NCBI GenBank assembly: GCA_965224085.1
Contig: CBDCYI010000005.1
Location: 2,112,001-2,176,000 of the forward strand
Length of the DNA stretch: 64,000 nt
Direction: 5' to 3'
Origin: Candidatus Marinacidobacterales bacterium
Lineage (GTDB): Bacteria > Acidobacteriota > Vicinamibacteria > Marinacidobacterales > SMYC01
The translations under genes and the position numbers were made by a program. This document shows, piece by piece, positions 35,640 to 46,801 of this stretch. The notes beneath the pieces are model-generated. The model was not told the DNA's origin and ran no database searches. It worked only from the letters and a program-made list of their open reading frames with translations. Each line of letters begins with the position of its first letter. Position 1 is the first letter of the stretch.

Positions 35640-35653
35640 GGTAGAATTCAGTG

Positions 35654-35917
35654 ATGGTTACTATGACAAACAATCTGCACGTGCCGTTGCCTGCCGATTT
35701 GAACGACGAGCTACGGACAGAAGCCGAGCGCTCCGGTCGGCCGGCGACCGAGATTGCGAGAGAGGCAATTCGGCTATTTCTGCGTCAGTGTCGCCGCCAG
35801 GCTCTGCACGAAGAGATCGCTGCCTACGCACGGAGCGTCGCCGGCACCGCGGCTGATCTAGATCCCGCGCTCGAGGATTCCGCGCTCGAGGTTATCGACT
35901 CACTAGACGAGACGTGA
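35654..35917 (+). CDS. RHH-type antitoxin
   Basis: LHVPLP..L..EL..EAERSG...TEIAREAI; acidic C-terminus; overlaps the toxin start. Confidence 0.75.
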   Translation: MVTMTNNLHVPLPADLNDELRTEAERSGRPATEIAREAIRLFLRQCRRQALHEEIAAYARSVAGTAADLDPALEDSALEVIDSLDET

Positions 35918-36261
35918 GGCGCGGAGAGGTTTATCGAGCGGAGCTCCGCCCGCGGTCGGGATCAGAACAGCGAGGCACGCGTCCAGTGATCGTGGTTTCT
36001 CACGACGGTTTCAACGAAGTCGATACGTGGCGCTCGATCATCATTGTTCCCGTGTCCACCTCGGCAAAGCAAGCCGTACGGAGTGCAACCGCTGTGCCGC
36101 TGCCAAAAGGCGCCGGGGGCCTCTCCCAGGATAGTGTTGCGCTTTGTCACCAAGTCACCACCCTCGACCGAGCGAAGTTAGTCAAGAGGCTTGGCTCATT
36201 GGCATCCGACGATTTGACCCGCGTCGCGCTCGGCCTGAAAGCCTCGCTCGATCTGGACTAA
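35914..36261 (+). CDS. mazF: PemK/MazF-family toxin
   Basis: RRGEVY, GSEQRGTRPVIVVS, VPVST and CHQVTTLD motifs. Confidence 0.9.
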   Translation: MRRGEVYRAELRPRSGSEQRGTRPVIVVSHDGFNEVDTWRSIIIVPVSTSAKQAVRSATAVPLPKGAGGLSQDSVALCHQVTTLDRAKLVKRLGSLASDDLTRVALGLKASLDLD

Positions 36262-36290
36262 AGGGATCGGTGGGCCGCGCGCTGGGGATG

Positions 36291-38183
36291 GTCGAGTAGC
36301 TCAGCCATTCGGCTTTCGCCCTCACAGATCCGAGCGTGCGGCTTTCCCGCACTCGGCTCCTCCTGAAGGTATACCCGAAATCAGACAAGGCAAGGTAGTC
36401 GGGACGGAGTGAGGTGAGGGACTGGTAGGGGAAAGCGCTCCAACAACAAGTGAAAACGAGGCCAGGTCATTCGGCGCTGACTCCGCCGACGAAGGCTTCG
36501 AAACCACAACCGTGTCACCTCCTCAGAAAAGGATTGGAGAGAGCGGATGTTGCTGGGAAGTCCGTAGTACGCGTAGTGACCGCGCAGCACCTGGCAAAGC
36601 CAGCGATGCTGGACGGCGACTGGAGCATGCATACGTTGCTTCGCGCGAAGCCGTAGCGACTTGAGTTTGGCTCGTAGCCGCTGGCTCTGCGTTTTGCGCT
36701 TCACGACGAAACGGCCATCGCGGGTTCTCCCACAATAATGAGTGAAACCCAGGAAAGCGAACGTCGCACACCGCCAAAGGCCCCGTTGCTCGCGTGACAA
36801 GGAAGGTAATCTCCCGAACTCGAGCAAACGGGTCTTGTTCTCGTGGAGCGCAAGCCCGAATCGGGCTAGTCGCTCCTTGAGCGCTCTCATCATCCTGCTG
36901 GCATCGGTCCGATGCTGGAAGCCCATGACGAAGTCGTCAGCGTATCGCACGATGGAAATACGGCCTTGTGCTTCGAGCCGGCGCCATCGATGAACCCACA
37001 GATCTAGAACGTAGTGCAGAAAGACGTTAGCCAAGAGCGGGCTCACACCTGCCCCTTGCGGTGTCCCTTCAGTTGTCTCGCTCCACTCTCCTTTCTCCAG
37101 CACGCCGGCTCGCAACCACTGACGGATGAGTCGAAGGATGCGTTTGTCGGCGACCCGGTGCGAAAGCATCCGCATCAACCACTCGTGGTCCACCGAGTCG
37201 AAGAACTTGCGGATGTCCGCGTCGAGAACCCAGTTCACGCGTTGCGTCATGAGCGCGGTGTGGAGCGCGTGCAACGCTTGGTGCGGGCTCCGTCCGGGCC
37301 GAAACCCGTACGAGAACCCGATGAAATCGACTTCGTAGACGGCGCTCAAAACCTCGGCTACCGCTCCTTGGACAATCTTGTCTTCCAGTGCGGGGATGCC
37401 AAGAGGGCGCTTTCCGCCATCCGACTTAGGAATGTACACGCGCCGCACCGGTAGTGGTCGGTAGCGACCGGCGTGTACCCGCGAGCAAAGATCCTTGATG
37501 TTGCTCACGAAGTTCTTCTCGTAATCGGCGACAGTCTCTCCGTCGACACCAGCGCTTGCGCTGCGCTTCAACCGACGAAACGCTCGATAGAGCGCTTCGT
37601 GATCCACGTGATGCAGCAACGCAGTGAACCGAGCCTTTCTATCTCGCTTCGCTGCTTCGTTCACCCGCGTGAGATTTGGCGGTAAGGCGACCCGGCGCTG
37701 TGTCCGGACCTTAGCCCTCTCCCGTGGGTTCCCTCCAGGCCGATCCCTTCCCTCCACCATCTCGTTGCCTTCGATAGCTTCCTCAGTACTATGAATCGGT
37801 CCGACTTCCGGCCTCAGCTCAGCACCGCGCTTCGGTTTTCCCTTGCGCGACGCCCCCATCGGTGACCATTCCGATGGACCCGGCCGGACCTCCTGGGTCC
37901 CGAAAGGAACTCTTCGTACGTGATGTGGTCCACGACCCCGGCGGAGCGTAACCATCTCGCGATAGCGATGGCCCACATGCTGCCTTCATTGACGGGAATC
38001 AACTCGGCCTTCCGCGATATTCAGCATTTCGAGGCTACATTCACACACCCTGCACGACCCCTGTCTACGCTTCGGACCCCGCGTTGCCACGACGCCCGCA
38101 AGACTCGGTCCCGACCTGTCCGCTACGACTTTTGGTCGGATTGGACTTCCACCCATAGGCTCCTTTCAGTTAGCCCAGCGCAC
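36291..38183 (-). mobile_element. Group II intron A, copy 1 (complete, 1893 nt)
   Basis: 5' GTGCG at 38183; DV GAGCCGAGTGCGGGAAAGCCGCACGCTCGGATC; DVI ending CTACTCGAC at 36291; RT ORF inside. Confidence 0.92.
36381..37760 (-). CDS. ltrA: Group II intron reverse transcriptase/maturase, no endonuclease domain
   Basis: RPLGIP, SYGFRPGR, GTPQG, RYADD, FLGF and maturase VLRGHYAYY. The start codon is uncertain. Confidence 0.92.
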   Translation of the reverse strand: MVEGRDRPGGNPRERAKVRTQRRVALPPNLTRVNEAAKRDRKARFTALLHHVDHEALYRAFRRLKRSASAGVDGETVADYEKNFVSNIKDLCSRVHAGRYRPLPVRRVYIPKSDGGKRPLGIPALEDKIVQGAVAEVLSAVYEVDFIGFSYGFRPGRSPHQALHALHTALMTQRVNWVLDADIRKFFDSVDHEWLMRMLSHRVADKRILRLIRQWLRAGVLEKGEWSETTEGTPQGAGVSPLLANVFLHYVLDLWVHRWRRLEAQGRISIVRYADDFVMGFQHRTDASRMMRALKERLARFGLALHENKTRLLEFGRLPSLSREQRGLWRCATFAFLGFTHYCGRTRDGRFVVKRKTQSQRLRAKLKSLRLRAKQRMHAPVAVQHRWLCQVLRGHYAYYGLPSNIRSLQSFSEEVTRLWFRSLRRRSQRRMTWPRFHLLLERFPLPVPHLTPSRLPCLV

Positions 38184-39629
38184 TCCCGGCCGCTGTTGAA
38201 TTTGGTCGGGTAGCGGCGGCACCTGTGAATACTCTTAGGCAGCAAACTCATCGCTGTCAAGAGATTTCTGTTTGCTTCTAAGCGCGTGAACGAGAGCGCC
38301 CATATGGCGATAGCCTTTGATACGCCGGAACTTCTTCTCCGCCGTGACGACGCCGAGAGCGGTCCATCGGCGAACCATCGAAGGACTCTTCCAACGCTTG
38401 ACGTTTCTCGATACTCTTCGAATGGTTCCGTTGAGATTCTCAATGGCGTTCGTCGTGGCAAGAGACTGGCGAAGTAACTCGGGCAGAGCGAGCTTCACGA
38501 CCGTGAGCGTCTCTTCCATCCCTTCGCGAAGGCTTCCGGCAGCTTCATCGTGGCTGTTTCGCTCGAGCCACGACACCAATGCCTGAAGTCGCTTGCGCGC
38601 CTTGTCGGCACTCTTGCACTTGTAGGCTTTCTTCATCGTCTGGAGCACGTAGGCGTGACGAGACTTGGGAAGGTACGAGCGAAGATTTCGGAGTTTATGG
38701 ATCTGGCACCTTTGGATGACCGCGAGATCCCCCAACACGTCGACGAGTGCCTTGCGGATACCTTTGCCTCCGTCCACTACACAGAGAATCGACTCATCGA
38801 CGCGCAAGCCTCGCTCGAGAAGGTCCTGCAACATCGCGGTGCACACCCGAGAGTTTTCCGTCGAGCCCAGCCATATACCCAGGGGCACCTTCGTTCCATC
38901 TATTGTGATACCGAGAGTTACGACGACGGTCTGGCCGGCCACCTCAAGGCCATCCATCATCAGTGCCGCAAGTTCGTACTCCTCTAGCCGCCGAGACAGG
39001 TATTGCTCGAGCTTCTTCGTCGTCTGGCTCACGAGGTGACGGCTGGCGGCACTCTTGCTCGTGCCACGAGACTTCAACTTGGCCGCGGGTTTGTCCAGAC
39101 TCCGTTCGTAATTTCGGGTCGATACCCCCACCAAGATCTGATTCAACACTCGCTCTGGAAGCGGGTCTTCTTCGCGGAAGGCTTCGAAGTGTGGAAGCGA
39201 CGCCTCCTCACCAGACTTCGAACGCACTCGAGGTCGCGACACTTGGATGCGACGACCACCGAAGCTCAGCTCTCCGTTCGTGCTCCCCCAGTGGTTATGA
39301 GTTCGCTCCTTCTCGTGCTTGCCCTTGAGCCCCGCGACCTCCTCGGCGTCCTCTCTGAGCAGTAGGTGCAGAGCTGTCAGTCCTTGCTCGTACACCCATT
39401 CCGTCAGATCCGCCTTCGTGGCCGCGATCCCAGCTATCATCGGTAGCAGTATCTGACCGGCTTGGCCAACTACCTTGCCCGTAGGCGAGTGCGTTTGCTT
39501 TCTTACTGGCTTCTTTGATTTCCTAGGCATTGGTGGCTCCTTGTCCCCCTCTGGAGACGGTTGTTTGGCAGACCTATTCTTAGGCCGGCCAAGGAGCCGC
39601 CGCTACCCCAAATTCAACAGCGGCCGGGA
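38184..39629 (-). mobile_element. IS256-family element core; both IR tips cut off by intron insertions
   Basis: IRs 38184-38220 and 39596-39629 (GCCGCCGCTACCC[GAC]CAAATTCAACAGCGGCCGGGA). The displaced left tip GGGGATG is at 36284-36290. Confidence 0.88.
38235..39530 (-). CDS. IS256-family (Mutator) transposase
   Basis: RPRVR, GVSTR, MDG, VVDGGKG, QRCQIHKLRN and TTNAIENLN motifs. Confidence 0.93.
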   Translation of the reverse strand: MPRKSKKPVRKQTHSPTGKVVGQAGQILLPMIAGIAATKADLTEWVYEQGLTALHLLLREDAEEVAGLKGKHEKERTHNHWGSTNGELSFGGRRIQVSRPRVRSKSGEEASLPHFEAFREEDPLPERVLNQILVGVSTRNYERSLDKPAAKLKSRGTSKSAASRHLVSQTTKKLEQYLSRRLEEYELAALMMDGLEVAGQTVVVTLGITIDGTKVPLGIWLGSTENSRVCTAMLQDLLERGLRVDESILCVVDGGKGIRKALVDVLGDLAVIQRCQIHKLRNLRSYLPKSRHAYVLQTMKKAYKCKSADKARKRLQALVSWLERNSHDEAAGSLREGMEETLTVVKLALPELLRQSLATTNAIENLNGTIRRVSRNVKRWKSPSMVRRWTALGVVTAEKKFRRIKGYRHMGALVHALRSKQKSLDSDEFAA

Positions 39630-40025
39630 GTGCGCTGGGCTAACTGAAAGGAGCCTATGGGTGGAAGTCCAATCCGACCAAAAGTCGTAGCGGACAGGTC
39701 GGGACCGAGTCTTGCGGGCGTCGTGGCAACGCGGGGTCCGAAGCGTAGACAGGGGTCGTGCAGGGTGTGTGAATGTAGCCTCGAAATGCTGAATATCGCG
39801 GAAGGCCGAGTTGATTCCCGTCAATGAAGGCAGCATGTGGGCCATCGCTATCGCGAGATGGTTACGCTCCGCCGGGGTCGTGGACCACATCACGTACGAA
39901 GAGTTCCTTTCGGGACCCAGGAGGTCCGGCCGGGTCCATCGGAATGGTCACCGATGGGGGCGTCGCGCAAGGGAAAACCGAAGCGCGGTGCTGAGCTGAG
40001 GCCGGAAGTCGGACCGATTCATAGT

Positions 40026-42058
40026 GTGTGCTGGGCAGCGTCCAGATCAGGAAGGTTGAAGTCCCTCTGGTGCTCGGATGAGGAGCGCCATATCCAAAAG
40101 CGGGGGTAACGCCTCGCTGGCCGGGGAACGCGGATAAGGAGAACCCTAAACGGGCACGAAGTTGGAAACGATGGCTACTGCCAAGGGGATGTACCTAAGT
40201 TCGGGTTCTGTCCACTGGACAACTGGAGGACAGGGTGTCCACCGCGAGGTGGAATCTGAAGGGTATGCGGAGCAGTACCGGGCCGTAATCGAGGGGGCGA
40301 CCCCGTTGATGAACCGGTCGGCCAAAGGTGGGGCAAGGTCGAGCCTGCACTATGGAGGCGAAGGCGTTCTCATTCACCCACCGAATCAAGGTGTTTGCGG
40401 ACGGCACGGTACGGAAGATCTGGACGTGACCCCAGGAGGGCTCATTGGGTTCCCGAGTGGCGTCGGGATAAGCGACCCTATAAGCGAGAGCGAAATGGGA
40501 AGTGAAGCCGGGTGAGTCGTCGGACAGCCCAATAGTACCTGAAGCGCGGTGAAAGTCGTGTGATCGAGAGATCGGCAGCCGAGTGGGCTGGGGAAGGGGG
40601 CTGGCAAAGGTGGTTGGTGACAACAAGGATGACAGACGAGTAAGGGCGATGACGCGGATAAGTTCCTTTAGTGAAAGACCCAGAAGTGATCGTCCGAGGA
40701 AACTGTCGGCCTGGTTGAACCCAACGGGTGAGAGGAAGGTCCACTCTCTGGTGGACAAGATATACAAGCGGAAGAACTTGGAGCTGGCCTGGAACCGAGT
40801 GAAGCGGAACAAGGGTGCCGGTGGCATCGATGGACAAACTCTGGACGAGTTTGAGGAGCAGCTTGATGCGCACCTCAACCGACTCCATGAGGAGCTCAAG
40901 ACCGATGCCTATCGTCCACTACCTGTTCGGCAGAAACTCATTCCCAAGGCTGGACAACCGGGAAAGTTCCGCCCGCTCGGCATTCCGGCCGTTTATGACC
41001 GCGTGTGTCAGCAGGCACTGCAGAACCGGTTGGAACCGATCTTCGAGCAGGTGTTCGATGCCGCCAGCTTCGGATATCGACGAGGAAGATCGACAAAGGA
41101 TGCTTTACGCAAGATCTGGCAAGAGATCGAAGAGGGTTACGAGTGGATCGTGGATGCGGATCTTTCCAATTTCTTTGGGACTGTGGACCATGAGAAGCTC
41201 CTCGCTCTTGTTGCCAAGCGAGTGTCGGATGGTCGCGTCCTTCGTCTTATTCGCAGCATGCTCAAAGCAGGCTGCATGGCGGAGGGGAGACGGCTCCCGA
41301 CCGAGCAAGGTGCACCGCAAGGCGGTGTGGTCTCACCGATCTTAAGTAACGTCCTTTTGACTCCGTTTGATCGGGAGATGCGCCATCGTGGCTATCGCCT
41401 GACGCGGTATGCCGACGACTGGGTCGTGACATGCTGCACCAAGGCAGAGGCCCAGAAGGTGCTGGCCGAAGCCCGGATGATCCTTACGACGTTGGGTGTA
41501 ACCTTGAACGTGGAGAAGACTCGTATCGTTCACGTTGCACACGGCTTCGAGTTCTTGGGATACAAGATCAAGCGGGGTAGTCGCCCTTTGGCCCTACCCT
41601 CACACAAGATCCGTACGGGTGTCCGCAAGGGTGACCTGTACGCGTACCCTCGACAGAAGTCGCTCCAGCACTTCAAGGATCAGATTCGGCGACGGACCTG
41701 TCGCAAAGCTCCTGTGAGTACGCAGCAGCTAATCGACGAGATCAACCCGGTTATTCGCGGTTGGGGTCTTTACTATCATAAAGCTCACGTCCGCAAGCTC
41801 TTCGCGCGTCTCGATCGTTGGATCCTGCGACGTATCTGGTCGCATCGGTTCAAACGCTGGCGCTGTCGGGGGTGGAAGCAGCTCCCGGAGCGTCAGCTCT
41901 ACGATGAGATGGGCCTCGTACGCTTTGTCTTCCTGATTCCTTCCATCAAGCCGCGATGAATAATCCAACCTTTGTGAAAGCCGGATACGGGAAAACTGTA
42001 TGTCCGGTTTGAGCGGCGGACGGGGGTCAGCGCTGCGGTGCGCCCCCTCCGACCCGAC
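40026..42058 (+). mobile_element. Group II intron B (complete, 2033 nt), nested in intron A
   Basis: 5' GTGTG; DV AAAGCCGGATACGGGAAAACTGTATGTCCGGTTT; 3' CCGACCCGAC. Removing it restores copy 1's CATAGT|ACTGAGG exactly. Confidence 0.92.
40583..41959 (+). CDS. ltrA: Group II intron reverse transcriptase/maturase (intron B)
   Basis: HSLVDKIY, NKGAGGIDG, RPLGIP, GAPQGG, RYADD and INPVIRGWGLYY. The true start may be downstream. Confidence 0.92.
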   Translation: MGWGRGLAKVVGDNKDDRRVRAMTRISSFSERPRSDRPRKLSAWLNPTGERKVHSLVDKIYKRKNLELAWNRVKRNKGAGGIDGQTLDEFEEQLDAHLNRLHEELKTDAYRPLPVRQKLIPKAGQPGKFRPLGIPAVYDRVCQQALQNRLEPIFEQVFDAASFGYRRGRSTKDALRKIWQEIEEGYEWIVDADLSNFFGTVDHEKLLALVAKRVSDGRVLRLIRSMLKAGCMAEGRRLPTEQGAPQGGVVSPILSNVLLTPFDREMRHRGYRLTRYADDWVVTCCTKAEAQKVLAEARMILTTLGVTLNVEKTRIVHVAHGFEFLGYKIKRGSRPLALPSHKIRTGVRKGDLYAYPRQKSLQHFKDQIRRRTCRKAPVSTQQLIDEINPVIRGWGLYYHKAHVRKLFARLDRWILRRIWSHRFKRWRCRGWKQLPERQLYDEMGLVRFVFLIPSIKPR

Positions 42059-42084
42059 ACTGAGGAAGCTATCGAAGGCAACGA

Positions 42085-43231
42085 GATGGTGGAGGGAAGG
42101 GATCGGCCTGGAGGGAACCCACGGGAGAGGGCTAAGGTCCGGACACAGCGCCGGGTCGCCTTACCGCCAAATCTCACGCGGGTGAACGAAGCAGCGAAGC
42201 GAGATAGAAAGGCTCGGTTCACTGCGTTGCTGCATCACGTGGATCACGAAGCGCTCTATCGAGCGTTTCGTCGGTTGAAGCGCAGCGCAAGCGCTGGTGT
42301 CGACGGAGAGACTGTCGCCGATTACGAGAAGAACTTCGTGAGCAACATCAAGGATCTTTGCTCGCGGGTACACGCCGGTCGCTACCGACCACTACCGGTG
42401 CGGCGCGTGTACATTCCTAAGTCGGATGGCGGAAAGCGCCCTCTTGGCATCCCCGCACTGGAAGACAAGATTGTCCAAGGAGCGGTAGCCGAGGTTTTGA
42501 GCGCCGTCTACGAAGTCGATTTCATCGGGTTCTCGTACGGGTTTCGGCCCGGACGGAGCCCGCACCAAGCGTTGCACGCGCTCCACACCGCGCTCATGAC
42601 GCAACGCGTGAACTGGGTTCTCGACGCGGACATCCGCAAGTTCTTCGACTCGGTGGACCACGAGTGGTTGATGCGGATGCTTTCGCACCGGGTCGCCGAC
42701 AAACGCATCCTTCGACTCATCCGTCAGTGGTTGCGAGCCGGCGTACTGGAGAAAGGAGAGTGGAGCGAGACAACTGAAGGGACACCGCAAGGGGCAGGTG
42801 TGAGCCCGCTCTTGGCTAACGTCTTTCTGCACTACGTTCTAGATCTGTGGGTTCATCGATGGCGCCGGCTCGAAGCACAAGGCCGTATTTCCATCGTGCG
42901 ATACGCTGACGACTTCGTCATGGGCTTCCAGCATCGGACCGATGCCAGCAGGATGATGAGAGCGCTCAAGGAGCGACTAGCCCGATTCGGGCTTGCGCTC
43001 CACGAGAACAAGACCCGTTTGCTCGAGTTCGGGAGATTACCTTCCTTGTCACGCGAGCAACGGGGCCTTCGGCGGTGTGCGACGTTCGCTTTCCTGGGTT
43101 TCACTCATTATTGTGGGAGAACCCGCGATGGCCGTTTCGTCGTGAAGCGCAAAACGCAGAGCCAGCGGCTACGAGCCAAACTCAAGTCGCTACGGCTTCG
43201 CGCGAAGCAACGTATGCATGCTCCAGTCGCC
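42085..43231 (+). pseudogene. Truncated intron A RT (C-terminal maturase lost)
   Basis: Matches the copy 1 protein up to KQRMHAPVA, then reads into foreign sequence. Confidence 0.85.
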
Positions 43232-44039
43232 ATCGGGCTCGACGAAGAGGGCACCAATCTAGTTCTCTCCCGACCGATCGATACGATCTCGGCGCCCGGG
43301 CGTTGCGGGCGGTGTGTCGGCGGCGCGCCGACCTTGTAATTGAAAACCTTGCTCTGCGGCAGCAGGTGACGGCGCTCAAGAAGGAGCGCCCCAGGCCACC
43401 GCTCGACGACACGGACCGCGCATTCTGGGTTGCGCTCCGAAGCTCGTGGCCGGCGTGGGCGAGCCGCTTGGTCATCGTCAACGCAGACACAGTCGCCCGG
43501 TGGAATCGGGATCGATTCCGACGATTGGACTCGGAATCTCGCGCAGACGCTATCCAGGCCGACCTCGGATTGATGCCGAGACCCGCCACCTCATCCGCAC
43601 GATGTCGCAAGACGGCTGGGGCGCACCTCGTATCCACGCCGAGCTCAAGAAGCTCGCGGCGGCAGTTTCCGACCTAGCGCTCAGCGGTACCTCGCTTGTA
43701 TATCAGCTACCCACGAGGATCGTTGCCACTTGGGGCTCGAAAAAGACACGCCGAACGAGAGACTCATTACGCCGCGACCGTCACCCACGGCGAAAGTTGT
43801 CGCGCTGCCGAGAGTTGGTGGACTGCACCACCGCTACGCGTGGAGCGACGCAGCGTAGGGCAGTTTTATCGTCGCGAAACTCGCACCGCGGGAGCAGTCG
43901 TAGCTTGTGTTCTCCAGTTCGTGAAACCACAGGCCGCGTGTTCCTGGCAGCGTTTCGCCTACGTCGAGTCCGCCATCGTCCTCATCGCCGAGCCCCATGG
44001 GCCCAACTGTACCAGCGGACTAATAATGATGACGGACAG
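43232..44039 (+). mobile_element. Degenerate integrase-core (rve) IS remnant
   Basis: ENLALRQQ...DTVARW...WGAPRIHAELKKL is joined by a deletion to YHEDRCHLGLEKDTP...VGGLHHRY. Boundaries are approximate. Confidence 0.7.
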
Positions 44040-44287
44040 GTGTGATTGTTGGTCCTTCGCCATGATCGTGATATGGTCTGTGTGCGGTAGTGTATCGAAC
44101 GCCGTTCGCCAATGTTGAGTTGCGCGTCGGGTAGCGCAGGGAATCGTTGAATCGCCACGATAGTCGTCCTCAACGGGCTGTTCTCGGAGGCTGAGCACGG
44201 TGACCATTCTTACGGGCTGCGCGCCCAGCCCGTATGGGCTTTCGTTGTAGTCCGCAGCGGAGCGGGACCTTCGTAAGGAGAGAATGG

Positions 44288-46801
44288 ATGATCAGGACAC
44301 TCGCTCTTGGTGCCGTGATCGCGGGGATCGGGCTGGCAATAGGTAGCAGCCCGGTAGGCGCCTTGCCGTCCCCCGGGCAAGAAACAGGGGCCGTATCCGC
44401 TGCGTCGTTCGCGCGCGAGACCCCGACCGAGCCCGCAGCGCCCTCTCCTTCCCCTTCCGTTACGTCCGAAGCCCTGACCGAGGTGGTTCAGAGCTACTGC
44501 CTGGTCTGCCACGACGACCAGCAGATGACCGGGAACGTCTCGCTCCAGAACTTCGACGTCGAAAGAGCGGCGGAGCAGGCCGAGACGGCCGAGCGGATGA
44601 TCCGGAAACTGCGCTTGGGGATGATGCCGCCTGCAGGCATGCCCCGCCCCGAAGCGGACACCCTCCTGGCGCTGGTGGAGACCCTGGAGTCGAATGTCGA
44701 CGAGGCGGCCCGGACCGCTCCCGATCCAGGCGGGCGTCGGTTCCAGCGGCTCAGTCGGGTCGAATACGAGCGTGTGATCCACGACCTGCTGGCCCTGGAG
44801 GTGGACGCGGGCAAGTGGCTCCCTGTCGACCTTCTCATGGGCGCCTTCGACAACCAGTCGGCCGCCCAGCCGTTATCGCCGACCGTCCTGGATTCGTTTC
44901 TGAGGGCCGCCAGCGAGGTCGCTCGGCTGGCGGTGGGGAACCCCAAGGCCGCCCCCACCACGACGAAGCACGTGAATCCGGAGCGGGTTTCGCAGCACGC
45001 CTGGGATCGGCTCGAAGGCGCTCCGTTCGGAACCCGGGGAGGCATGGTGGTGACCCACGACTTCCCGGCGGACGGAGAATACGTCTTCCAGGTGAAGACC
45101 AAACAGGGGAGTGGGAATCAGACGGCGGTAGAGGATCTTGACATTTCCATCGACGGCGAGGGGGTCGCGCTCCTGATGCTCGAGCACAACGCAGGGGGGC
45201 GCAAGCGTGATGGCGTCGGCATTTTGCTGGCCGACCTGGAGGCGCGGGTCGGCATCCAGACCGAGCCGATCTTCGTCCGCGCGGGCCAGCACACGGTGTC
45301 GGCGGCGTTCGTCAACCTCATCGACGGTCCGTACGAGGATCGGTTCAGTCCTGTCGGATGGTCGGCCACCCATCCAATTACGAGCCAGCAGTACGGAATC
45401 ACCGGGCTGACGCACCTCAGCGAGCTGTGGATCACGGGCCCCAGCAATGTGTCCGGAGTGTCCGAGACGGCGAGTCGCCGAAAGATCTTCACCTGCCACC
45501 CGGCCTCGTCCGCCGAAGAGCGGCCCTGCGCCGAGTCGATCCTCACCGAACTGGCGACGCAGGCCTATCGGCGACCGGTGACGCAGCAAGACGTGGCGGA
45601 CCTGCTGTACTTCTACGACGAGGGAGCCGCCGAAGAGGGATTTGAACGCGGGGTTCGGATGGGGTTGCAGTCCATCCTCATGTCGCCCGATTTCCTGTTC
45701 CGGCTGGAGCGGGAGCCCGCCAGCGCCCGGCCGGGTGAGAGCTATCGACTGAGCGACGTCGAGCTCGCGACACGGCTCTCCTTCTTTCTGTGGGCCACGG
45801 CCCCGGACGAGGAACTCCTCGAGGTCGCCGCGAGCGGCCGGCTTTCGAACCCTGTCGTCCTCGAGCAGCAGGTCGAGCGGATGCTCGAGGATCCCCGGTC
45901 CGAGACGCTCGCCACCCGTTTCGCGCACCAGTGGTTGAGGCTGGAGGACGTCGGGGAGATCTGGCCGCAAGCGTATCTGTATCCGGATTTCACCGGACAG
46001 CTCGCCGACGCGTTGGTGCGGGAGACCGAGCTGTTCTTCCAGTCCCTTGTCGACGAGGACCGGAGCCTGCTCGAGCTCTTGGACGCCGACTACACTTTCG
46101 TCAACGAGCGTCTGGCCCGGCACTACCAGATCGAAGGAATCTACGGGGATGGATTCCGCCGTATCCAGTACCTGGACGACGGGCGCCGTGGAGTCCTCAG
46201 CCACGCGAGCGTGCTGCATCTGACCTCCATGGCGGACCGGACGTCTCCGGTGCTGCGCGGGAAGTGGGTCATGGAGGTGCTGCTCGGGTCGCCGCCGCCG
46301 CCGCCGCCGGAGAACGTGCCGGCTTTCGAGGAAACTCCGGCCGTCGACGAAGGCCGCCCTCTAAACACGCGCGAGCGGATGGAAGCACACCGCGCCAGCC
46401 CGGCGTGTAACTCCTGCCACCGCTTCATGGACCCGATCGGTCTGGCGCTCGACAGCTTCGACGCCACCGGCAGGTGGCGGATCCGTGAGAACATGGTGCC
46501 GCTCGACACGCGGGGCGACTTCTACGACGGTACGCCGATCGCCACGCCCACCGAGCTTGTCGGCGCGCTCCTGAAGCGCCCGATCCCGCTCGTACGGAAC
46601 TTCACCGAAAACCTGCTGTCATACTCGCTCGGCCGTCCCGTGGAGCACTTCGACCAGCCGACGATCCGCGCGATCGTCCGAGAGGCTGAAGCCAACAATT
46701 ATCACATGTCGTCCTTCATCTTCGGAGTGGTGAAGAGCTATGCTTTCCATATGAAACGGATGGAGCCGGCCGTCACCGCCGACGCTGGGGCCGGCCATTA
46801 A
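44288..46801 (+). CDS. DUF1592/DUF1588-type (PSD/PSCyt) cytochrome c domain protein
   Basis: AAGGAG RBS; signal peptide; CLVCH and CNSCH; RLSRVEY, LATRLSFFLW and TSPVLRGKWV. Confidence 0.85.
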   Translation: MIRTLALGAVIAGIGLAIGSSPVGALPSPGQETGAVSAASFARETPTEPAAPSPSPSVTSEALTEVVQSYCLVCHDDQQMTGNVSLQNFDVERAAEQAETAERMIRKLRLGMMPPAGMPRPEADTLLALVETLESNVDEAARTAPDPGGRRFQRLSRVEYERVIHDLLALEVDAGKWLPVDLLMGAFDNQSAAQPLSPTVLDSFLRAASEVARLAVGNPKAAPTTTKHVNPERVSQHAWDRLEGAPFGTRGGMVVTHDFPADGEYVFQVKTKQGSGNQTAVEDLDISIDGEGVALLMLEHNAGGRKRDGVGILLADLEARVGIQTEPIFVRAGQHTVSAAFVNLIDGPYEDRFSPVGWSATHPITSQQYGITGLTHLSELWITGPSNVSGVSETASRRKIFTCHPASSAEERPCAESILTELATQAYRRPVTQQDVADLLYFYDEGAAEEGFERGVRMGLQSILMSPDFLFRLEREPASARPGESYRLSDVELATRLSFFLWATAPDEELLEVAASGRLSNPVVLEQQVERMLEDPRSETLATRFAHQWLRLEDVGEIWPQAYLYPDFTGQLADALVRETELFFQSLVDEDRSLLELLDADYTFVNERLARHYQIEGIYGDGFRRIQYLDDGRRGVLSHASVLHLTSMADRTSPVLRGKWVMEVLLGSPPPPPPENVPAFEETPAVDEGRPLNTRERMEAHRASPACNSCHRFMDPIGLALDSFDATGRWRIRENMVPLDTRGDFYDGTPIATPTELVGALLKRPIPLVRNFTENLLSYSLGRPVEHFDQPTIRAIVREAEANNYHMSSFIFGVVKSYAFHMKRMEPAVTADAGAGH

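What the first reader, a model, noticed from the sequence alone, without database searches (positions are those of the whole stretch)
36284..43231. Group II intron inserted in both terminal inverted repeats of an IS256 element
Seen: the IS256 core (38184-39629) ends on both sides in AAATTCAACAGCGGCCGGGA, followed immediately by the intron start GTGCG. The two intron copies therefore point outward in opposite directions. Beyond the 3' end of complete copy 1 the sequence resumes CATCCCC (36290-36284), so splicing rebuilds ...CGGGA|CATCCCC. Known: this resembles a typical IS256 terminus, and introns often sit inside IS coding regions. Inference: this intron homes to the conserved IR 6-7 nt from the tip. 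It gains two sites per IS copy and probably immobilises the host element, acting as a retroelement parasite of transposon ends.
Basis: partly seen in the sequence, partly recalled or inferred. Interest (0 to 1): 0.9.

Follow-up and report, generated by a model that had tools for sequence, protein, structure and literature searches.

The report
Group II intron homing into IS256 ends
A self-splicing retroelement (group II intron) has inserted itself seven bases inside both ends of a jumping gene of the IS256 family, in this window and at almost every other copy in the genome, which probably disables the jumping gene; the same trick is already published for another intron and insertion sequence.

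Summary
An IS256-family element (core 38184-39629, intact transposase) carries the same group II intron ("A", 1893 nt) just outside both inverted repeats, pointing outward. Copy 1 (36291-38183, minus) is complete. Copy 2 (39630-43234, plus) holds a second, nested intron ("B", 40026-42058) and is cut off at A position 1572.

Across the genome, all 11 intron A 5' junctions follow the IS end ...GGGA, and all 12 3' ends are followed by CATCCCC. Two intron-free ends here, and 37 ends in ten related genomes, read ...GGGA|CATCCCC with 8-bp target duplications. The intron therefore sits 7 nt inside the IS tip.

The EBS1 loop pairs with CGGGA and covaries with the exon in relatives. Relatives of the intron in other phyla sit beside different IS256-family transposases (5 of 8 testable).

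The principle is not new: RmInt2 homes into both inverted repeats of ISRm17 in Sinorhizobium meliloti (PMC4615759). What is new here:
- a different, compact intron lineage
- the IS256 link across phyla
- near-saturation of the ends in this genome
- twintrons
- base exchange between the two repeats at occupied ends

Verdict: new member of a known kind, of moderate interest.

The parts
36284..36290 (.). 7-nt tip of the IS (GGGGATG on +; CATCCCC on -). It is cut off from the rest of the IS by intron A copy 1 and serves as that intron's 3' exon.
   Evidence: all intron-free ends read ...GGGA|CATCCCC
36291..38183 (-). Intron A copy 1, complete, 1893 nt (5' GTGCG ... 3' CTCGAC)
36291..36361 (-). Domains 5-6 of intron A
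   Evidence: Rfam RF00029, 53.2 bits
36381..37760 (-). Intron-encoded reverse transcriptase/maturase of A (459 aa from the ATG at 37760; the start codon was chosen by eye). No endonuclease domain was detected.
   Evidence: Pfam RVT_1 6e-39; TIGR04416 365 bits against a cutoff of 300
37926..38149 (-). Domains 1 to 4 (5' part) of intron A
   Evidence: Rfam RF02005, 140.9 bits
37991..37998 (-). EBS1 loop AUUCCCGU (intron positions 186-193). UCCCG pairs with CGGGA at exon positions -5 to -1.
   Evidence: hairpin in the Rfam alignment; only perfect 5-mer match; covariation in relatives
38184..39629 (-). IS256-family element without its two 7-nt tips (1446 nt). Imperfect IRs of about 40 nt at 38184-38224 and 39590-39629.
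38235..39530 (-). Transposase, 431 aa, intact
   Evidence: Pfam Transposase_mut 4.5e-42; NCBIfam IS256 family transposase 224.9 bits against a cutoff of 150
39630..40025 (+). Intron A copy 2, positions 1-396
40026..42058 (+). Intron B (2033 nt) nested in intron A copy 2 (a twintron). RT/maturase ORF at 40583-41959; D5-D6 at 41976-42058.
42059..43234 (+). Intron A copy 2, positions 397-1572, truncated. It lacks the last 321 nt, including D5-D6 and the end of the RT gene.
43235..43680 (+). Degraded remnant of a different, integrase-type IS that ends intron A copy 2
   Evidence: 94% aa identity to residues 11-89 of a 349-aa ORF at C9 (borderline rve_3/HTH_21); repeated in the genome

Best explanation
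Intron A is a recently active mobile group II intron. It encodes a reverse transcriptase/maturase with no detected endonuclease domain, and it retrohomes site-specifically into the terminal inverted repeats of a 1460-bp IS256-family insertion sequence, between ...CGGGA and CATCCCC, 7 nt inside the tip.

Both IRs carry this sequence in inverted orientation. Each IS therefore offers two targets on opposite strands, and the two introns point outward.

Recognition uses at least a 5-bp EBS1-IBS1 pairing (UCCCG with CGGGA). It probably also uses position +1 (C) and protein contacts to the conserved CAAC at -15 to -12, because the short pairing alone occurs thousands of times in the genome.

Once inserted, 1.9-3.9 kb of intron DNA separates the cleavage site (the tip) from the transposase-binding part of the IR. 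RNA splicing cannot repair this at the DNA level, so the occupied end, and hence the IS, should no longer transpose.

A second intron (B) then homed into intron A at position 396/397, just upstream of the RT start codon, giving twintrons.

Shown here: the anatomy, the target, its occupancy, the intron-free reference sites, EBS1 covariation, and recency (near-identical copies). Inferred: the retrohoming mechanism, the extra determinants of specificity, and immobilisation of the IS.
For: Anatomy and family membership.

Target:
- 11 of 11 5' junctions and 12 of 12 3' junctions in the genome lie in the IS end.
- Intron-free ends read GGGA|CATCCCC in 2 of 2 ends here and 37 of 37 ends in 10 related genomes, with 8-bp duplications.

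Specificity:
- Of 58 genomic sites matching CAAC[AT]N5[CT]GGGA, 15 are IS ends: 11 occupied, 1 with a 4-nt intron remnant, 3 free.
- None of the 43 non-IS sites is occupied.
- CGGGAC occurs 5141 times in the genome.

EBS1:
- The loop of a conserved D1 hairpin.
- Exon position -5 is T where the loop has A (L052, L055, L058, L059).
- Shifted or altered exons in L053, L128 and L066 are matched by altered loops.
- One mismatch (L056).

Retrohoming rather than recombination: only 7 nt of shared sequence lies beyond the intron's 3' end, and the flanks beyond are unique.

Recency: 14 copies or fragments of A differ at 4 of 1893 positions, and 7 copies of B are identical.

Insertion after IS transposition:
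- Intact 8-bp duplications around two IS copies with introns at both ends.
- Four full IS copies show four different configurations: A / A+B truncated; A+B / A+B; A+B / A; A+B truncated / free.

Consistent with IS shutdown:
- None of the 4 full-length IS copies here has two free ends, although the transposase ORFs are intact.
- In one search, G033, G021, G023, G002 and G016 list 9-11 full-length copies each, G003 eight, and G012, G010, G025 and G001 one to five. No full intron A was found in any of them.

Lineage:
- Close relatives of the RT (63-77% aa) in other phyla have 5' exons ending CAAC-N7-GGGA or similar.
- 5 of 8 relatives with at least 1.1 kb of upstream DNA have an IS256-family transposase abutting the intron, in either orientation.
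- L057 and L128 have an intron-free opposite IR that matches the spliced junction.

Other runs: contigs of X2 and X3 bridge flank-tip-intron 3' end, and contigs of X1-X3 bridge intron 5' end-IS.

Precedent: RmInt2 retrohomes experimentally into both IRs of ISRm17 (PMC4615759).
Against: - No RNA evidence of splicing and no mobility assay.
- No EBS2 or other determinant was found that explains the high specificity.
- 13 non-IS sites with the motif followed by C are unoccupied, so the real target definition is unknown.
- One copy (C11:195321) has only about 19 nt of IS end upstream and no transposase nearby. It is either a deletion remnant or an ectopic event.
- L055 and L066 are not next to an IS256 transposase.
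- Both IRs are occupied in 3 full IS copies. An endonuclease-less intron with a strict lagging-strand bias would not be expected to fill both, and GC skew was too weak to test orientation.
- Immobilisation is not shown. Low IS copy number here could have other causes.
- The long-range mirror structure of this locus rests on the assembly alone. The laid contigs are short and break at repeat branch points.
Confidence: 0.85

Rival explanations
1. The whole block tip-intron-IS-intron-tip is itself the mobile unit. The transposase still uses the 7-nt tips, and the introns are passengers that were acquired once and then copied by transposition.
For: 8-bp target duplications flank the whole composite at C11:1214110-1223407 and C4:252508-259772. 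The transposase ORFs are intact.
Against: - The four full IS copies have four different intron configurations, and one has a free end.
- Intron-free ends exist here and in all 10 related genomes inspected.
- Truncated and solo intron copies exist.
- The same duplications are expected if the introns entered after the IS did.
- In the composite the tip is 1.9-3.9 kb from the rest of the IR. That IS256-type transposases need a contiguous IR is established knowledge, not tested here.
Confidence: 0.06
2. The intron spread among IS ends by DNA-level homologous recombination or gene conversion between IS copies, not by reverse splicing.
For: Bases at -6, -8 and -10 of the IR are exchanged between the two end types at 4 of 11 occupied ends. 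This shows that DNA-level or exon-carrying exchange happens near the junction. Several rearranged copies exist, for example C11:486076-487611.
Against: - Beyond the intron's 3' end only 7 nt are shared between loci, too little for a double crossover.
- EBS1-IBS1 covariation across relatives is the signature of RNA-guided insertion.
- Relatives occupy different IS256-family members (34-42% transposase identity).
Confidence: 0.05
3. The mirror arrangement in the window is an assembly artefact of collapsed or mis-joined repeats.
For: The arms are near-identical repeats of 1.6 kb. No long read was inspected. Laid contigs break at 37787/37788 and near 38187-38213.
Against: - The same arrangement occurs at two other loci with matching 8-bp duplications.
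- Contigs are megabase-sized.
- Each junction is bridged by contigs from runs of other studies.
- The two arms differ in content (nested intron B, truncation), which a simple collapse would not create.
Confidence: 0.03

Closest known systems
RmInt2 (class D group II intron) in the inverted repeats of ISRm17, Sinorhizobium meliloti GR4 (PMC4615759; PMC5894124; passages read)
   Same: - The intron copies lie within the IRs of an IS.
- There are two target sites per IS on opposite replication strands.
- The RT lacks an endonuclease domain.
- The authors state that this doubles the targets and guarantees one on the lagging-strand template.
- Retrohoming to the IR target was shown experimentally.
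   Different: - RmInt2 uses EBS2-IBS2, and its EBS3-IBS3 pair is U-A. Here no EBS2 was found and position +1 is C.
- The RT here is not close to a known class D protein by any test I could run; its best solved relatives are IIC-type RTs.
- The host IS here is IS256 family. The family of ISRm17 and the distance of RmInt2 from the tip are not in the text I read (Fig. S1 is a supplement, which is closed).
- Here almost all ends are occupied and many copies are twintrons.
RmInt1 in ISRm2011-2 and E.c.I4-type introns in IS elements (PMC1802570 listing; PMC3522654 passages; PMC5894124 passages)
   Same: The intron uses a multicopy IS as homing site. Insertion is said to block spread of the IS (RmInt1 splices poorly in vivo). 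IS-targeting is discussed as a general strategy, and target saturation is seen in some genomes.
   Different: PMC5894124 attributes the block on IS spread to RmInt1's very low splicing in vivo. Here the target is the non-coding IR, 7 nt from the tip, so splicing cannot restore function of the DNA end.
Group IIC introns at terminator or attC stem-loops (recalled; mentioned in PMC3753933 and PMC7923331)
   Same: Compact ribozyme (about 516 nt outside the ORF here), short EBS1 pairing, no EBS2 found, and an RT most similar to IIC RTs among solved structures.
   Different: No consistent stem-loop lies upstream of the insertion site (z about 0 for most of 11 exons). Insertion is highly sequence-specific rather than motif-specific. 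D5 carries AGC; that IIC introns usually have CGC there is recalled, not tested.
Nested group II introns (twintrons); introns homing into other introns (c-Ha.de.I1 copies inside other copies, PMC3522654 passage; archaeal cases recalled)
   Same: Intron B sits at one fixed position of intron A in 6 of 7 copies.
   Different: B is only 34% identical in RT to A. It lies upstream of the RT start, not in the ORF.

Membership tests
Mobile bacterial group II intron | Domain 5/6 with catalytic AGC and a bulged branch A near the 3' end | tested here: met
   Rfam RF00029 at 36291-36361, 53.2 bits against a gathering score of 40. The alignment shows GAGCCG...GAAA...CGG and CUAC before the 3' end.
Mobile bacterial group II intron | Domain 1-4 ribozyme structure | tested here: met
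   RF02005, 140.9 bits against 49, full model 1-225, in both copies.
Mobile bacterial group II intron | RT/maturase ORF in domain 4 | tested here: met
   TIGR04416: 365.4 bits (A) and 393 bits (B) against a cutoff of 300. Pfam RVT_1 for both; GIIM detected only for B.
Mobile bacterial group II intron | 5' GUGYG and 3' AY boundaries; EBS1-IBS1 pairing with the 5' exon | tested here: met
   GTGCG...CGAC. UCCCG pairs with CGGGA, with covariation in 7 relatives and 1 mismatch.
Mobile bacterial group II intron | Splicing and retrohoming activity | not testable with these tools
   Only indirect: near-identical copies at many IS ends. The laid RNA run gave no spliced-junction evidence specific to this locus.
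IS256 family insertion sequence | Mutator/IS256-type DDE transposase | tested here: met
   NF033543, 224.9 bits against a cutoff of 150; PF00872, 4.5e-42.
IS256 family insertion sequence | Length about 1.3-1.5 kb, imperfect terminal IRs, 8-9 bp target duplication (family traits recalled) | tested here: met
   1460 bp, IRs of about 40 nt, and 8-bp duplications in most of 18 intron-free copies and at 2 occupied copies.
Class D introns (RmInt1/RmInt2-like) | EBS2-IBS2 pairing at about -8 to -13 | tested here: inconclusive
   No convincing complement was found. Positions -6, -8 and -10 differ between the two natural IRs, yet both are invaded. The search was not exhaustive.
Group IIC introns | Insertion just after a DNA stem-loop (terminator/attC) | tested here: not met
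   DNA folds of 11 5' exons: z from -2.1 to +0.5, most near 0, with no shared hairpin.
Group II intron homing into IS inverted repeats (RmInt2 type of behaviour) | Copies in both IRs of the same IS family, and intron-free IRs carry the intact target | tested here: met

The most novel reading that the evidence does not exclude
A phylum-spanning lineage of compact, apparently EBS2-less group II introns is specialised on the conserved last ~25 bp of IS256-family elements (CAAC-N7-GGGA|CA..., 7 nt from the tip). It acts as a natural killer of these transposons. In this genome it has occupied 12 of 14 ends and left no IS copy with two free ends, while sister genomes without the intron keep up to 11 listed full-length copies. 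The exchange of IR bases between the two ends, seen only at occupied ends, would then record exon co-conversion or arm-to-arm gene conversion accompanying bacterial intron mobility.
Probability: 0.35. Interest if true: 0.6.

Novelty: new member of a known kind. Interest (0 to 1): 0.45.

Why it matters
This is a clear natural case of one selfish element parasitising, and probably silencing, another. The intron's target lies wholly inside the transposon's terminal repeat, so every transposition makes two new homing sites, and every homing event should disable an end.

The genome offers a useful contrast. Here the ends are nearly saturated and the transposase genes are intact. Close relatives carry many intron-free copies. 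That contrast could be used to test whether such introns limit IS256 expansion.

Relatives of this intron sit beside different IS256-family members in several phyla. That suggests a long-standing specialisation that, in the literature I could search, has not been described for IS256.

The general principle is already published for RmInt2/ISRm17, so this extends known biology rather than changing it.

Tried and rejected
- Hairpin target (IIC-like): DNA folds of the 5' exons of this IS and 9 relatives gave no shared stem-loop, with z mostly near 0. Rejected.
- EBS2: GTTGA next to EBS1 is complementary to TCAAC at -16 to -12. However, it forms the stem of the EBS1 hairpin and does not stay complementary in L057, L059, L060 and L128, whose exons keep CAAC. 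Rejected. No other EBS2 candidate stood out.
- Replication-strand bias: local and cumulative GC skew is too weak (200-kb skews of 0.0003-0.025). Inconclusive.
- Intron class: Rfam, Pfam, NCBIfam and PDB hits do not assign a class. The best PDB relatives are IIC-type RTs (1.8e-48 to 1.8e-46), against IIB (4e-39) and IIA (1e-38). Class left open.
- Other group II introns as home of the solo copy of B (C9:853583): tblastn found none there.
- Read laying: only short contigs were available. No contig spans the whole stretch and no spliced-exon joint for this locus was seen. One 679-nt skip (36834-37514) in one contig of X1 at depth 3.4 was not followed. The X1 flank contig leaves the window sequence at 36284; a 20-nt piece of its continuation is not in this genome, so no empty site could be reconstructed.
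- Pfam on ORFs at 43237-44118 gave nothing. The region was identified only by comparison with an intact copy.
- Literature: searches were run. 'group II introns' + 'IS256 family' + 'homing site' gave 0 papers. Subscription journals and supplements (for example Fig. S1 of PMC4615759 and the tables of PMC7306698) were not visible and may hold relevant cases.
- G027 is flagged unpublished.

Full report
**What is in the window**

ORF listing, repeat finding and Rfam and direct reading give the following order on the plus strand:
- Unique DNA ending in a PemK/MazF-type gene (35914-36261).
- The 7-nt IS tip GGGGATG (36284-36290).
- Intron A copy 1 on the minus strand (36291-38183, 1893 nt).
- The IS core (38184-39629), with an intact 431-aa transposase on the minus strand (38235-39530).
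- Intron A copy 2 on the plus strand, positions 1-396 (39630-40025).
- A different, complete group II intron B (40026-42058, 2033 nt).
- Intron A positions 397-1572 (42059-43234).
- A degraded integrase-type IS (from 43235).

The transposase is an IS256-family protein: NCBIfam NF033543, 224.9 bits against a cutoff of 150, and Pfam Transposase_mut, 4.5e-42. Both intron ORFs pass the group II RT/maturase model TIGR04416. Both introns have Rfam D5-D6 hits, and A has a full D1-D4 hit. It omitted the nested intron, and the true end of copy 2 is 43234.

**Is the IR really the target?**

I laid the whole genome (6.87 Mb, 12 contigs; the window is C5:2112001-2176000) and searched it with BLAST.
- Intron A occurs as 14 copies or fragments.
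- All 11 copies that keep their 5' end are preceded by the IS end ...CAAC-N6-GGGA. Ten have at least 60 nt of the IS. One (C11:195321) has only about 19 nt and no transposase nearby.
- All 12 copies that keep their 3' end are followed by CATCCCC and then unrelated DNA.
- Two ends of this IS are intron-free (C4:895340, C7:319) and read ...GGCCGGGA|CATCCCC. So does a 72%-identical relative of the IS (C9:650051).
- One further end (C4:1360216) is followed by only the first 4 nt of the intron.
- In total, 12 of 14 ends of this IS in the genome carry the intron or its remnant.

In 40 related genomes the IS is common, with matches in 15 of 40. I inspected 18 full-length copies (91-97% identical) plus one partial copy from 10 genomes.
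- All 37 ends are intron-free.
- The stop-side end reads GGGGATG|TCCCGGCCGCTGTTG, with the tip GGAGATG in two copies.
- The start-side end reads CAACATCCGGCGGGA|CATCCCC, with TCCGAC in one copy and CATTTCC in one.
- Most copies are flanked by clear 8-bp duplications.

The IS is therefore 1460 bp, and the intron sits exactly 7 nt inside each tip.

**Order of events and mechanism**

Two IS copies with introns at both ends are bounded by perfect 8-bp duplications: C11:1214110-1223407 (CTCACGGA) and C4:252508-259772 (CCCGGCAG). The four full IS copies have four different intron configurations. Beyond the intron's 3' end only 7 nt are shared between loci, so homologous recombination cannot explain the spread. 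Insertion by reverse splicing into resident IS copies is the economical reading.

Intron copies differ at 4 of 1893 positions, and all 7 copies of B are identical, so the burst is recent.

The Rfam alignment places AUUCCCGU (intron positions 186-193) in the loop of a conserved D1 hairpin. UCCCG is the only perfect complement of CGGGA in the first 600 nt.

I tested this pairing in relatives.
- Exon position -5 is T where the loop has A (L052, L055, L058, L059).
- Exon position -5 is C where the loop has G (A, L057, L060).
- The differently ending exons of L053, L128 and L066 are matched by changed loops.
- L056 has one mismatch.

That is covariation support for EBS1-IBS1.

This pairing is too short to explain the specificity.
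- CGGGAC occurs 5141 times in the genome.
- The motif CAAC[AT]N5[CT]GGGA occurs 58 times.
- None of the 43 non-IS sites is occupied, including 13 that are followed by C.

The two natural IRs differ at -6, -8 and -10 and both are invaded, so these positions are not read. CAAC at -15 to -12 is constant in 8 of 9 relatives' exons with an IS-like end and reads CCAC in L056. It does not covary with any intron segment I could find. It may be read by the protein, or it may simply be conserved in IS256 ends. A IIC-like hairpin target was tested and rejected.

**Does it disable the IS?**

This is inference. The insertion puts 1.9-3.9 kb between the tip and the rest of the IR, and splicing acts on RNA, not on the DNA end.

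Observations consistent with shutdown:
- None of the 4 full IS copies here has two free ends, though the transposase ORFs are intact (100%, 100%, 100% and 98.8% identical).
- Related genomes list up to 11 full-length copies each (9-11 in five of the ten inspected), and no full intron A was found in them.
- The only close trace elsewhere is a 534-nt 3' fragment in G002, again followed by CATCCCC.

Copy number differences between genomes have many possible causes, so this is weak support.

**A wider lineage**

The RT of A has relatives at 49-77% identity in MAGs and genomes of many phyla. For 13 of the closest I could place the 5' junction, and for 13 the 3' end.
- 9 of these 5' exons end in CAAC (CCAC in one)-N7-GGGA or -CGGG.
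- All 13 3' exons start with C (excluding L064 and L066, whose ends were not placed cleanly).
- Of 8 loci with at least 1.1 kb upstream, 5 have an IS256-family transposase directly upstream. L053, L057, L058 and L128 are 34-42% identical to the window's transposase. L062 has Pfam Transposase_mut at 8.7e-46.
- Both relative orientations occur.
- L057 and L128 show an intron-free opposite IR that equals the spliced junction.
- L055 (Nramp-like neighbour) and L066 (aldo/keto reductase) are not next to such a gene. L054 has unclear boundaries.

Association with IS256 ends is therefore frequent in this lineage, but not universal.

**Independent sequence support**

Twenty public runs hold part of the stretch. 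I laid X1, X2, X3 (three studies) and an RNA run, X15, on 35800-39660.
- Contigs of X2 and X3 run without a difference from the unique left flank through the tip into the intron's 3' end (35800-36313).
- Contigs of X1-X3 run from intron position 396 through the 5' end into the IS (to 38187 or 38213).
- Contigs branch at 37787/37788 into the two ends of intron B, so forms with and without B coexist.
- X2 and X15 also hold intron-free IS ends (...GGGGATG before 38184).

These are short contigs. Some runs may be the source sample, and they cannot show the long-range mirror structure or transcription.

**What is known**

The closest precedent is RmInt2. All of its copies lie in the inverted repeats of ISRm17. 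The authors note two sites per IS on opposite replication strands, and they showed retrohoming (PMC4615759, passages read; PMC5894124). IS-targeting as a strategy, target saturation and introns nested in introns are discussed for enterobacterial introns (PMC3522654, passages). MGE neighbourhoods are discussed in general terms (PMC7306698, one passage).

I found no paper linking group II introns to IS256-family termini. The library lacks subscription journals, and supplements were closed.

Intron A differs from RmInt2 in several ways:
- No EBS2 was detected.
- Position +1 is C.
- The ribozyme is compact, about 516 nt.
- The RT is nearest to IIC-type RTs among solved structures. It nevertheless fails the IIC stem-loop criterion.

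**Verdict**

It is a new, well-documented member of a known kind of behaviour. The added points of interest are the cross-phylum IS256 association, near-saturation, twintrons, and exchange of IR bases at occupied ends.

Noticed in passing
window 40026-42058; genome C11:1215607-1217639, C11:1219878-1221910, C9:391983-394015, C4:254005-256037, C4:891466-893498, C9:853583-855615: Intron B (RT + GIIM, 34% RT identity to A) is nested at the same place in intron A (between A positions 396 and 397, 27 nt upstream of the RT start) in 6 of its 7 copies. All 7 copies are identical. The seventh sits alone, in non-intron DNA, at a site that shares TAGT|A with the nested target.
   Followed up: partly
window 39615-39624 versus 38189-38198; genome C11:1218035, C11:1219482, C4:256433: The two natural IRs differ at -10, -8 and -6: GCGGC on the transposase-stop side and TCCGG on the start side. 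At 4 of 11 intron-occupied ends these bases are swapped or chimeric, and the window's right end carries the full stop-side type. None of 2 free ends here and none of 37 ends in relatives shows this. All 3 full IS copies with introns at both ends are affected, which makes their two ends more alike. By hand, C(11,4)/C(50,4) is about 0.0014, but the ends are not independent. This suggests arm-to-arm gene conversion or 5'-exon co-conversion.
   Followed up: partly
window 35651-36261: A PemK/MazF-type toxin ORF (35914-36261, Pfam 6.7e-27) is preceded by an overlapping 88-aa ORF with no Pfam hit, which looks like a toxin-antitoxin pair. The IS tip lies 22 nt after its stop.
   Followed up: no
window 43235-44200: Intron A copy 2 is cut at position 1572 by a degraded copy of another repeated element. 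Intact copies on C9 encode a 349-aa protein with borderline rve_3/HTH_21 matches. The window copy matches its residues 11-89 at 94% and then loses the frame.
   Followed up: partly
genome C11:193429-195321: A complete intron A whose 5' exon shares only about 19 nt with the IS end (GGTTCAACATCCGGCGGGA), with no IS256 transposase upstream. Its 3' exon is still CATCCCC. It is either a deletion remnant of an IS end or an insertion into a solo end.
   Followed up: partly
genome C11:484183-487611: An IS copy with introns at both ends has lost IS positions 1-978 and intron positions 1-825 in one deletion. Its two outer flanks share no 8-bp duplication, so recombination between copies has also occurred. 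C5:1938342 and C5:2298277 are 5'-truncated intron copies with identical flanks, which indicates a duplicated segment.
   Followed up: no
L002 (G002:C1:852315-852848): A same-genus genome with at least 10 intact intron-free IS copies holds only a 534-nt 3' fragment of intron A, followed by CATCCCC. This looks like a fossil of a past invasion.
   Followed up: partly
window 36284 (run X1); window 38184-38224 (run X15): In run X1 the contig carrying the window's left flank departs at 36284 into sequence that is absent from this genome. This may be a different arrangement or an empty site in a related strain. In the RNA run X15, low-depth contigs show an intron-free IS end with both flanks carrying TGGAAGAG.
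   Followed up: partly
window 44234-46801: An 855-aa protein with the PSD2-5/PSCyt3 domain set (weaker PSCyt1 and cytochrome c matches) typical of planctomycete-type proteins. This hints at the kind of organism.
   Followed up: no
genome C5:204996-206108, C5:214175-215287, C5:2286071-2287183, C9:2167-3279, C9:100085-101197, C11:879856-880968: Six copies of another IS256-family transposase (about 29% identical to the window's) are present. None of the 11 intron A 5' junctions lies at these coordinates, but their ends were not inspected.
   Followed up: no
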